Assembly: GCF_009914755.1 (NCBI RefSeq)
Contig: NC_060925.1
From: the human T2T-CHM13v2.0 reference genome, Homo sapiens
Strand: one strand, 5' to 3'
DNA length: 64,000 nucleotides
The notes beneath the pieces were generated by a model that was not told the origin of the DNA, made no database searches, and saw only the letters and a list, made by a program, of their open reading frames with translations. The position numbers were made by a program, and so were the translations under genes. This document shows, in pieces, positions 1,895 through 2,805 of this stretch. Numbering within the stretch: position 1 is the first letter of the stretch; the number at the start of each line of letters is the position of its first letter.

Positions 1895-2447
1895 ATCACA
1901 CTCTGGGGTCTGGTGGGGGGACAGGGGAGAGATAGCATTAGGAGATATACCTAATGCTAAATGACGAGTTGATGGGTGCAGCACACCAGCATGGCACATG
2001 TATACATATGTAACTAACCTGCACATTGTGCACATGTACCCTAAAACTTAAAGTATAATAATAATAATAAAAGAAAACCCTGCTCTTAGAGGGTTCATCA
2101 TCTAGAAGTGAGAGGAAGATGTGAAAACAAAATTTTGTCATATGCTGTGGTCAAGTGTTTAAATGGAAGTATTAATAGGAATCTAAAGGAAATACATATG
2201 ACTAAAATAAAAGAAAGTGAATTCAGCCCTGGGAGTAACAGAGACGTGCAAACAAGATGAGAGGCATTGTCTTGGAGCATAAACAATGTGGTCCTGGTTA
2301 GATACTGTACTTAAAATAATATTGTAAATATTGCAGATTTATGGGTTAAAGACTTTGCTGTTGTGGGCTAAGAATCTAACCAGTTCCAGACGACCAACTT
2401 TTAAACAGACTTTTGGAGTAGAGTTTCTAAATGTTCTTAAAGGTTCC

Positions 2448-2784
2448 TGTCAGGCCTTTGAGCCCAAGCCTGTATGTATACATGCAGATGGCCTGAAGCA
2501 AGTGAAGAATCACAAAAGAAGTGAAAATGGCCAGTTCCTGCCTTAACTGATGACATTACCTTGTGAAATTCCTTCTCCTGGCTCAGACACTCCCCCACTG
2601 AGCACCTCGTGACCCCCGCCCCTGCCTGCCGGAGAACAACCCCTTTGACTGTAATTTTCCACTACCTACCCAACTCCTATAAAATGGCCCTACCCCTATC
2701 TCCCTTTGCTGACTCTTTTTGGACTCAGCCCGCCTGCACCCAGGTGATTAAAAAGCTTTATTGCTCAAAAAAAAAAAAAAAAAA
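2448..2784 (+). mobile_element. HERV-H LTR7C-like LTR (U3-R only) ending in a poly(A) tail
   Basis: Starts TGTCAGGCCTTTGAGCCCAAGCC. TATAAAA at 2678, ATTAAA at 2747-2752, then TTGCTC followed by A18 (2767-2784) where U5 (…CACAAAGCCTGTTTGG) should be. Confidence 0.92.
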
Positions 2785-2805
2785 GAATCAATTCAAAATG
2801 AATTA

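What the first reader, a model, noticed from the sequence alone, without database searches (positions are those of the whole stretch)
2041..2800. Probable L1 3' transduction that used a HERV-H LTR7C poly(A) signal and moved the LTR promoter with it
Seen: the L1PA ends in a short A-rich tail (~2075). It is followed by ~370 bp of unrelated genomic-looking DNA, partly antisense-L2-like. Then an LTR7C runs from its TG start through TATA and ATTAAA and stops 14 nt later at TTGCTC|A18, with no U5. Old L1MA ORF2 sequence (GAATCAATTCAAAATG) follows the A-tail directly. Established: L1 transcripts often read through their weak poly(A) site, HERV-H LTRs polyadenylate at the R/U5 border, and retroviral integration leaves a complete TG...CA LTR rather than a tail. 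Inference: L1, flank and LTR U3-R were one polyadenylated RNA inserted by TPRT into the L1MA. An ERV promoter/enhancer module was thus spread by LINE machinery.
Basis: partly seen in the sequence, partly recalled or inferred. Interest (0 to 1): 0.8.

Follow-up and report, generated by a model that had tools for sequence, protein, structure and literature searches.

The report
L1 copy carrying HERV-H LTR
A jumping L1 element landed on chromosome 1 together with about 700 bases copied from chromosome 5, including the promoter half of an old retroviral LTR; this is a clear but ordinary case of L1 carrying neighbouring DNA along.

Summary
A 5'-complete young L1PA starts 3,980 bp upstream of the window and ends near 2072. 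It is followed by 375 bp of non-L1 DNA (2073-2447), a HERV-H LTR U3-R (2448-2766) and A16-18. One perfect 13-bp target-site duplication, AAGAATCAATTCA, encloses the whole unit inside an older L1.

The 694-bp non-L1 part has exactly one other genomic copy, on chr5 (CHM13 119,465,3xx-119,466,09x, minus strand), differing at 23 of 692 sites. There the LTR continues into U5, a primer-binding site and HERV-H internal sequence, so it is the 5' LTR of a truncated provirus. Carter et al. 2022 label it LTR7o, not LTR7C.

The L1's own divergence (about 2.1%) matches half the chr1/chr5 divergence (about 1.7%). This fits one insertion event.

The predicted source L1 is absent from chr5 in this genome. The homology boundary there lies at an L1 endonuclease-type site (TT/AAAT).

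- Best reading: 3' transduction from a source L1 allele that was never fixed, about 0.75.
- Rivals: a separate retrocopy inserted into the L1 tail, or a template-switch chimera.

No promoter activity of the moved LTR is shown. This is a new member of a known kind.

The parts
1..1465 (+). Young L1PA, ORF2 3' part and start of the 3'UTR. The element begins outside the window at -3980 (chr1:37,072,020).
   Evidence: 32 of 39 other scored L1 copies begin their homology exactly at L004 6020; 92-96% identity to 13 full-cover relatives; the reading frames are broken.
1466..1894 (-). Complete solo HERV-H LTR (LTR7u2 per Carter et al.) inserted antisense in the L1 3'UTR, flanked by the 5-bp duplication ATCAC (1461-1465 and 1895-1899).
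   Evidence: sequence; hg38 chr1:37213390-37213816, minus strand, solo, 7u2, H3K27ac=1, H3K9me3=1; none of the 39 other scored matches spans the L1/LTR junction.
1900..2072 (+). Remainder of the L1 3'UTR with a short (AAT)n-AAAA tail. The L1's own AATAAA lies at 2066-2071 and was read through.
2073..2447 (+). 375 bp copied from chr5 (the DNA just upstream of a HERV-H 5' LTR). It contains one bypassed AATAAA at 2206-2211.
   Evidence: one other genomic match, C5:119465716-119466085, minus strand, 97%; 10 of 373 sites differ; hexamer positions.
2448..2766 (+). HERV-H LTR U3-R without U5. U3 is about 2448-2707, TATAAAA is 2678-2684, R is about 2708-2766 and ATTAAA is 2747-2752.
   Evidence: 13 of 319 sites differ from chr5; hg38 chr1:37214370-37214695, +, 'LTR7o solo fr'. 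The R start is inferred from the 5' ends of two HERV-H processed copies.
2767..2782 (+). Poly(A) tail: 16 A's, or 18 counting the two A's that open the duplication.
   Evidence: The chr5 copy reads ACACAAAG... at this point.
2783..2795 (+). 3' copy of the 13-bp target-site duplication AAGAATCAATTCA. The 5' copy is at window -3993..-3981 (L004 6007-6019).
2796..2800 (+). Older L1 (the target), which continues at 2985 after a 5'-truncated Alu.
   Evidence: D4: 2970-3043 is 74% identical to L1PA 469-542. The upstream continuation is in L004.

Best explanation
This is an L1 3' transduction. A full-length young L1PA once sat in sense orientation about 375 bp upstream of the 5' LTR of a truncated HERV-H provirus on chr5 (hg38 chr5:118,948,123-118,952,646, minus strand).

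A transcript from that L1 read through the L1's own AATAAA and a second AATAAA in the flank. It entered the LTR through U3 and was cleaved at the retroviral R/U5 poly(A) site, 14 nt after ATTAAA; the downstream element in U5 was left behind.

L1 ORF2p then inserted this RNA by target-primed reverse transcription into an older L1 on chr1, at AC/AAGAAT. That produced one 13-bp duplication and an A16-18 tail. The source L1 allele was never fixed, or was lost.

Later, a younger HERV-H integrated antisense into the new L1's 3'UTR and collapsed to a solo LTR. An Alu inserted just downstream.

Shown: the single duplication pair, chr5 as the only other copy and as the original, the cleavage position, and matching ages. 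Inferred: that an L1 ever sat at chr5.
For: 1. One perfect 13-bp duplication brackets L1 + flank + U3-R + tail, and the older L1 is contiguous across it.
2. The flank has exactly one other genomic copy. There the LTR runs on into U5, a primer-binding site and internal sequence, so chr5 is the parent and chr1 the RNA-derived copy.
3. Ages agree. The L1's branch is 2.1% (1.85% non-CpG) from 13 relatives. Half the chr1/chr5 divergence is 1.7% (23 of 692 sites).
4. Homology to chr5 starts at GAAAAC, or 5 nt earlier at TAAA[A/T]. On chr5 that position lies at ...AAAAATT/AAATGAAAAC, a good L1 endonuclease site, as expected if a source L1's own duplication began there.
5. The same cleavage point followed by poly(A) ends 8 other LTR7-family copies, so the site is used in vivo and such RNAs reach the L1 machinery.
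6. The order of events fits published ages: 7o 25-40 Mya, 7u2 4-14 Mya.
7. Only a short genomically encoded A-run (4 A's after an (AAT)n run, at most about 10 nt in all) separates L1 and flank, as expected from a genomic tail and not from an mRNA tail.
Against: No L1, and no L1 remnant, lies next to the flank on chr5 in this genome. The nearest L1-like DNA is about 6.5 kb away, in the opposite orientation and 77% identical.

No sibling copies of the flank exist (both candidates were scored).

The internal A-run is very short. That requires a source L1 with almost no tail; about 1-2 of 22 relatives look like that.

Within the first 12 nt of presumed homology, 2 sites differ from chr5. That is more than the 3.3% average, so the exact boundary is uncertain.

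L1-independent RNAs ending at this LTR are plausible. The chr5 locus lies on the same strand as DTW-domain exons 24 and 104 kb downstream.
Confidence: 0.75

Rival explanations
1. Two separate events. The L1PA inserted first, with the 13-bp duplication and almost no A-tail. A 5'-truncated retrocopy of an L1-independent chr5 transcript then inserted in trans into the L1's tail, duplicating AAAAGAA. One candidate transcript is read-in RNA of the host gene, polyadenylated at the sense-oriented intronic 5' LTR.
For: AAAAGAA occurs at 2069-2075 and again at 2781-2787. No L1 is present at the chr5 source. LTR7-terminated RNAs were retrocopied in trans several times; 8 loci were seen, two of them with full processed-pseudogene structure. 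A-rich tails are preferred L1 endonuclease targets (established knowledge). The chr5 locus is on the same strand as downstream DTW-domain exons.
Against: AAAAGAA is uninformative: 10 of 22 related L1 tail junctions contain it. The L1 would have been left with only 'AA' as a tail after its (AAT)n run. Homology to chr5 runs through the supposed duplication (GAA, probably TAAA[A/T]GAA). The ages of L1 and carried segment are indistinguishable, so the second hit would have had to follow quickly. By my own rough estimate, not a computed result, a non-Alu retrocopy landing at exactly one given L1 tail is rare.
Confidence: 0.1
2. A chimeric retrocopy with no source L1. Reverse transcription started on the poly(A) of a chr5 transcript ending in the LTR, then switched template to the 3' end of a full-length L1 RNA. 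Alternatively, the two RNAs were joined before reverse transcription. Either route gives one insertion with one duplication pair.
For: There is a single 13-bp duplication pair and no L1 at the chr5 source. A-rich microhomology exists at the junction. L1 chimeras with other RNAs are documented: in PMC4476161 and PMC6789731 I saw only the search listing and the start of the abstract; for bioRxiv 10.1101/2025.02.02.635956 I saw the abstract and outline.
Against: Catalogued chimeras put the other RNA 5' of L1, not 3' (abstract). A jump onto an L1 mRNA end should copy its long untemplated poly(A), yet only 4 A's after an (AAT)n run (at most about 10 nt) are present. It needs a further 6 kb of processive copying after the switch. 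From recall, this is much rarer than read-through transduction.
Confidence: 0.07
3. An ordinary solo LTR or retroviral integration at chr1 that happens to sit next to an L1. This is what annotation pipelines assume.
For: It is listed as a 'solo' LTR7o fragment in Carter et al. supplementary file 2.
Against: It has no U5 and no short integration duplication. A poly(A) tail sits exactly at the R end. The 375 bp upstream is 97% identical to the DNA upstream of the chr5 LTR.
Confidence: 0.01

Closest known systems
L1 3' transduction (Moran 1999; Goodier 2000; Pickeral 2000, recalled and not read here; population map PMC9311842, passages seen)
   Same: Sense L1, then unique non-L1 DNA ending at a downstream poly(A) signal plus tail, all within one duplication pair. 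The carried DNA maps to one other locus, on a different chromosome.
   Different: The progenitor L1 is not present at the source locus in this genome. The poly(A) site used is the R/U5 site of a proviral 5' LTR, so the carried DNA includes a whole retroviral U3 promoter.
L1 5' transduction carrying HERV-H LTR7Y and internal sequence (Salvador-Palomeque et al. 2019, PMC6425141; passages seen)
   Same: L1 retrotransposition moved HERV-H LTR-derived sequence to a new locus.
   Different: In that case the LTR acted as the promoter and its R-U5 plus spliced exons were carried at the L1's 5' end. Here the LTR acted as the terminator and its U3-R is carried at the 3' end.
HERV-W processed pseudogenes made by L1 (Pavlicek 2002, not held; Grandi 2016, PMC5016936, passages seen)
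   Same: A 3' LTR reduced to U3-R, followed by poly(A) and L1-type duplications.
   Different: Those are copies of retroviral genomic RNA (R-U5...U3-R). Here the RNA ran from an L1 through host DNA into a 5' LTR, with no internal retroviral sequence.
Solo LTR formed by LTR-LTR recombination
   Same: An isolated LTR7-family sequence. It is annotated as solo in the one list seen.
   Different: It lacks U5 and the 5-bp duplication. The neighbouring 7u2 LTR at 1466-1894 has both.

Membership tests
L1 3' transduction | Sense L1 3' end directly followed by non-L1 DNA | tested here: met
   L1 homology ends at window 2070-2083 in all 39 other scored copies (40 scored of 2005 candidates).
L1 3' transduction | The carried DNA ends in a poly(A) tail 10-30 nt after a poly(A) hexamer | tested here: met
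   ATTAAA at 2747-2752, then 14 nt, then A18.
L1 3' transduction | One target-site duplication encloses L1 plus carried DNA | tested here: met
   The 13-bp AAGAATCAATTCA occurs at L004 6007-6019 and at window 2783-2795.
L1 3' transduction | The carried DNA maps to a distinct parent locus | tested here: met
   There is one other copy, on chr5, and it extends beyond the copied part on both sides.
L1 3' transduction | A progenitor L1 abuts the carried DNA at the parent locus. This proves the reading, but it is not required in practice, because source alleles are often not fixed (recalled). | tested here: not met
   No L1 lies at the chr5 boundary in this genome. Other haplotypes and other species were not available.
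L1 3' transduction | All-or-none presence of L1 + carried DNA across species, with an empty site in outgroups | not testable with these tools
HERV-H LTR (LTR7 family) | The LTR is contiguous with a HERV-H primer-binding site and internal sequence at the parent locus, and is listed as LTR7-family | tested here: met
   One search shows U5, then a PBS-like TGGTGCCGTGACTCGGAT; its tRNA-His identity is recalled; both copies are listed as LTR7o.
   No repeat library was available. Carter et al.'s remasked list calls it LTR7o. The original RepeatMasker label was not seen.
Solo LTR from proviral recombination | A complete U3-R-U5 flanked by a short integration duplication | tested here: not met
   U5 is absent, the flanks are GTTCC on one side and poly(A) on the other, and a tail sits at the R end.
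Independent processed retrocopy | Its own informative duplication pair around 2073-2784 | tested here: inconclusive
   Only AAAAGAA qualifies, and 10 of 22 related L1 tails contain the same 7-mer.

The most novel reading that the evidence does not exclude
No source L1 ever existed on chr5. Instead, the insertion is a 3' chimera: reverse transcription began on a host read-in transcript polyadenylated in the HERV-H 5' LTR, then switched to a full-length L1 RNA. If so, some 'orphan-source' 3' transductions in genome catalogues would really be template-switch or RNA-joining products. That class has not been catalogued; the one catalogue seen (abstract) covers chimeras 5' of L1.
Probability: 0.07. 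Interest if true: 0.45.

Novelty: new member of a known kind. Interest (0 to 1): 0.27.

Why it matters
This is a well-resolved example of L1 moving a complete retroviral U3 promoter plus 375 bp of host DNA between chromosomes, long after the LTR's own family stopped spreading (7o wave 25-40 Mya).

Its practical value is for annotation. The copy is listed as a 'solo LTR7o', but it is not a retroviral integration. Presence/absence dating of LTR subfamilies would therefore mis-date it.

Together with the processed HERV-H copies seen in passing, it shows that some LTR7-family 'solo LTRs' are products of the L1 machinery.

No regulatory function of the moved LTR is shown. The RefSeq enhancer in this stretch (1382-1937) covers the other, younger LTR.

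Tried and rejected
- **Second LTR on chr5.** I wanted to date the provirus by LTR-LTR divergence. None exists within chr5:119,448,000-119,485,000, so this dating was not possible. The published list also calls the element 'truncated, 1 LTR'.
- **Sibling transductions.** The flank has only the two copies. No scored L1 3' end continues into it. Only 40 of 2005 candidates were scored, so this is not exhaustive.
- **Was the antisense 7u2 LTR already in the source L1?** No other scored locus spans the L1/LTR junction (40 scored of 1286 candidates). Insertion in place is the simpler reading.
- **A 14-nt identity (AAAAGAAAACCCTG) between this junction and the L1 copy L021 on chr8.** It looked like a shared source. 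I rejected it. The chr8 element is 5'-truncated, appears to have its own AAAAGAAA duplication, and differs afterwards.
- **Splicing from a distant chr5 L1.** No AG acceptor lies at the boundary, and the L1 is complete to its 3' end.
- **Pavlicek 2002.** The paper is not held.
- **Literature on HERV-H processed pseudogenes.** A six-phrase search found 0 papers in the held library.
- **Literature on transduction with LTR and HERV-H terms.** The searches found no description of this locus.
- **Whether the chr5 locus lies inside DTWD2.** Only two DTW-domain exons downstream on the same strand were located. The gene name and its 5' end are recalled, not tested.

Full report
**Anatomy**

The window opens inside a young L1PA. 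Its first base lies 3,980 bp upstream of the window, at L004 6020. Of the 39 other L1 copies scored (40 scored of 1830 candidates), 32 begin their homology at exactly that base. The element is therefore 5'-complete to within a few bases. Its reading frames are broken.

Immediately before it, the older host L1 reads ...TTTATACAAGAATCAATTCA.

The L1 3'UTR is interrupted at 1466-1894 by a complete antisense HERV-H LTR flanked by the 5-bp duplication ATCAC. It resumes at 1900 and ends in ...GTATAATAATAATAATAAAAG near 2072.

After the L1 come four pieces:
- 375 bp of non-L1 DNA (2073-2447).
- An LTR that starts TGTCAGG at 2448, with TATAAAA at 2678-2684 and ATTAAA at 2747-2752, ending at TTGCTC (2766).
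- 18 A's.
- AAGAATCAATTCA (2783-2795), which is the same 13-mer that precedes the L1.

The older L1 then continues. It is interrupted at 2801-2984 by a 5'-truncated Alu and picks up at 2985. So L1 + flank + U3-R + tail lie inside one perfect 13-bp duplication.

**Where the extra DNA came from**

A whole-genome search with 2076-2447 found exactly two places: the window itself and chr5:119,465,716-119,466,085 on the minus strand, at 97% (both candidates were scored).

Alignment shows homology from window 2073, possibly 2068, to 2766:
- Overall, 23 of 692 aligned sites differ (3.3%).
- In the flank, 10 of 373 differ; in the LTR, 13 of 319.
- 7 of the differences are in CpG context.
- There is one 2-bp gap.

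On chr5 the LTR does not stop at TTGCTC. It runs on through 45 nt of U5, a primer-binding-site-like sequence and internal retroviral sequence. No second LTR lies within 17 kb.

Supplementary file 2 of Carter et al. 2022 (PMC8912925) lists the three elements:
- hg38 chr5:118,948,123-118,952,646, minus strand: 'LTR7o, 1 LTR + internal, truncated'.
- chr1:37,214,370-37,214,695, plus strand: 'LTR7o solo' fragment.
- chr1:37,213,390-37,213,816, minus strand: 'LTR7u2 solo'.

These coordinates match the CHM13 positions with constant offsets. Direction is unambiguous: chr5 is the original and chr1 is an RNA-derived copy cut at the R/U5 poly(A) site.

**The poly(A) site is genuine**

A pattern made of the last 14 LTR bases plus A8 gave 58 genomic matches at up to 2 mismatches, against 4 for the reversed control. 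I inspected 11 of these loci:
- 8 are LTR7-family ends followed directly by A-rich tails.
- 1 is a normal LTR with U5.
- 2 are chance hits.

Two of the eight are full processed copies of HERV-H RNA, on chr3 near 26.16 Mb and chr5 near 127.18 Mb. Each starts about 27 nt after the TATA box, ends at the same R end plus poly(A), spans about 8 kb, and carries duplications of 16 nt or at least 12 nt. They place the R start in this window at about 2708.

**Timing**

Pairwise distances to 13 L1 relatives that cover 1.2 kb (13 of 29 fetched loci; the other 16 were truncated or rearranged) give this L1 a branch of 2.1%, or 1.85% without CpG columns. Half the chr1/chr5 divergence is 1.7%. The two values agree within counting error.

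Carter et al. date the 7o wave to 25-40 Mya and the 7u2 wave to 4-10 Mya by branch length, or 10-14 Mya by liftover. The order is therefore: chr5 provirus, then the L1-borne copy, then the 7u2 integration.

A figure of roughly 10-17 My for the L1-borne copy rests on substitution rates that I recall and did not compute. The subfamily name 'L1PA3-like' is likewise an inference from divergence.

**Mechanism**

All L1-mediated readings agree that a polyadenylated RNA ending at the LTR's R end was reverse-transcribed at an L1 endonuclease nick. The question is whether L1 and carried DNA were one RNA.

In favour of one RNA:
- A single duplication pair encloses everything.
- The ages are equal.
- The chr5 homology boundary lies at ...AAAAATT/AAATGAAAAC, an endonuclease-type site. 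That is where a source L1's own duplication would begin.
- Only a short, genomically encoded A-run lies between L1 and flank.

Against: chr5 carries no L1 at that boundary in this genome, and there are no siblings.

A source L1 that was never fixed reconciles these facts and is common for active L1s (recalled). A sense full-length L1 inside a gene would also be a likely candidate for loss. The chr5 locus is on the same strand as DTW-domain exons 24 and 104 kb downstream; the gene name DTWD2 is recalled.

**Rivals**

- **Two-step reading.** It rests on AAAAGAA flanking the carried DNA. That 7-mer occurs at 10 of 22 related L1 tail junctions. It would also leave the L1 with a two-A tail. Homology to chr5 runs through the supposed duplication.
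- **Template-switch chimera.** It explains the missing source L1. However, it predicts a long internal poly(A) and has no catalogued precedent in this orientation (abstract).

I put 3' transduction at about 0.75, two events at about 0.10, and a chimera at about 0.07.

**What is known**

3' transduction is textbook. L1 carrying HERV-H LTR sequence has been reported at the 5' end of an L1 (PMC6425141). My searches found no description of this locus.

The moved U3 keeps its TATA box, but nothing shows that it is active. This fragment was too short for Carter's regulatory table; it is absent from their file 1. They report no significant early-embryo transcription for 7o. The RefSeq enhancer at 1382-1937 coincides with the 7u2 LTR, which their table marks H3K27ac-positive.

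**Verdict**

The kind of event is ordinary. Its main use is as an annotation caution: this 'solo LTR' is a LINE-made copy.

Noticed in passing
L047/L056 (chr3:26,160,2xx-26,168,2xx, minus strand) and L045/L057 (chr5:127,183,9xx-127,192,0xx, minus strand): Two copies of HERV-H RNA, each about 8 kb, have full processed-pseudogene structure. Each starts at the R start (R-U5-PBS-internal...), ends at U3-R plus poly(A), and is flanked by L1-type duplications (AAATACCCTATGATGC, 16 nt; AAGAAAAAACTG or longer). A 2017 review abstract calls HERV-W the sole HERV group mobilised by L1 (PMC5537654). A six-phrase search for HERV-H processed pseudogenes or retrocopies found 0 papers.
   Followed up: partly
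L043, L044, L046, L048, L050, L052: Six more LTR7-family fragments end at the same R end followed by A-rich tails. They retain between 29 and about 290 nt of the LTR (5' truncation varies). Their upstream ends and duplications were not resolved. Some LTR7 'solo LTR' annotations may be L1-made copies.
   Followed up: partly
window 1466-1894 (minus strand), with ATCAC at 1461-1465 and 1895-1899: A complete solo LTR7u2 lies inside the L1 3'UTR. It coincides with the RefSeq 'enhancer' at 1382-1937. Carter et al. file 1 marks it H3K27ac=1 and H3K9me3=1 in pluripotent cells.
   Followed up: partly
window 1531-1894 versus 2448-2747: The two LTRs form an imperfect inverted repeat. Its arms of 23-108 nt (about 330 nt in total) are 78-96% complementary and lie 550-1000 nt apart (I1-I6). 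A transcript crossing both could fold into a long hairpin. This was not examined.
   Followed up: no
window 2801-2984: A 5'-truncated Alu with an A-tail of about 25 nt sits 5 nt downstream of the 13-bp duplication, with a likely AAAATG duplication. It interrupts the older L1.
   Followed up: no
L004 6020 to window 2072: Without the 7u2 insert the L1 measures about 5.6 kb. ORF1-like frames start about 0.5 kb after the 5' end, which suggests an internal deletion in the 5'UTR relative to the length I recall for L1. This was not checked against other copies.
   Followed up: no
L021/L054 (chr8:110,958,5xx): An unrelated 5'-truncated L1 shares AAAAGAAAACCCTG at its tail junction with this locus. I judged it a coincidence arising from A-rich L1 target sites.
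   Followed up: yes
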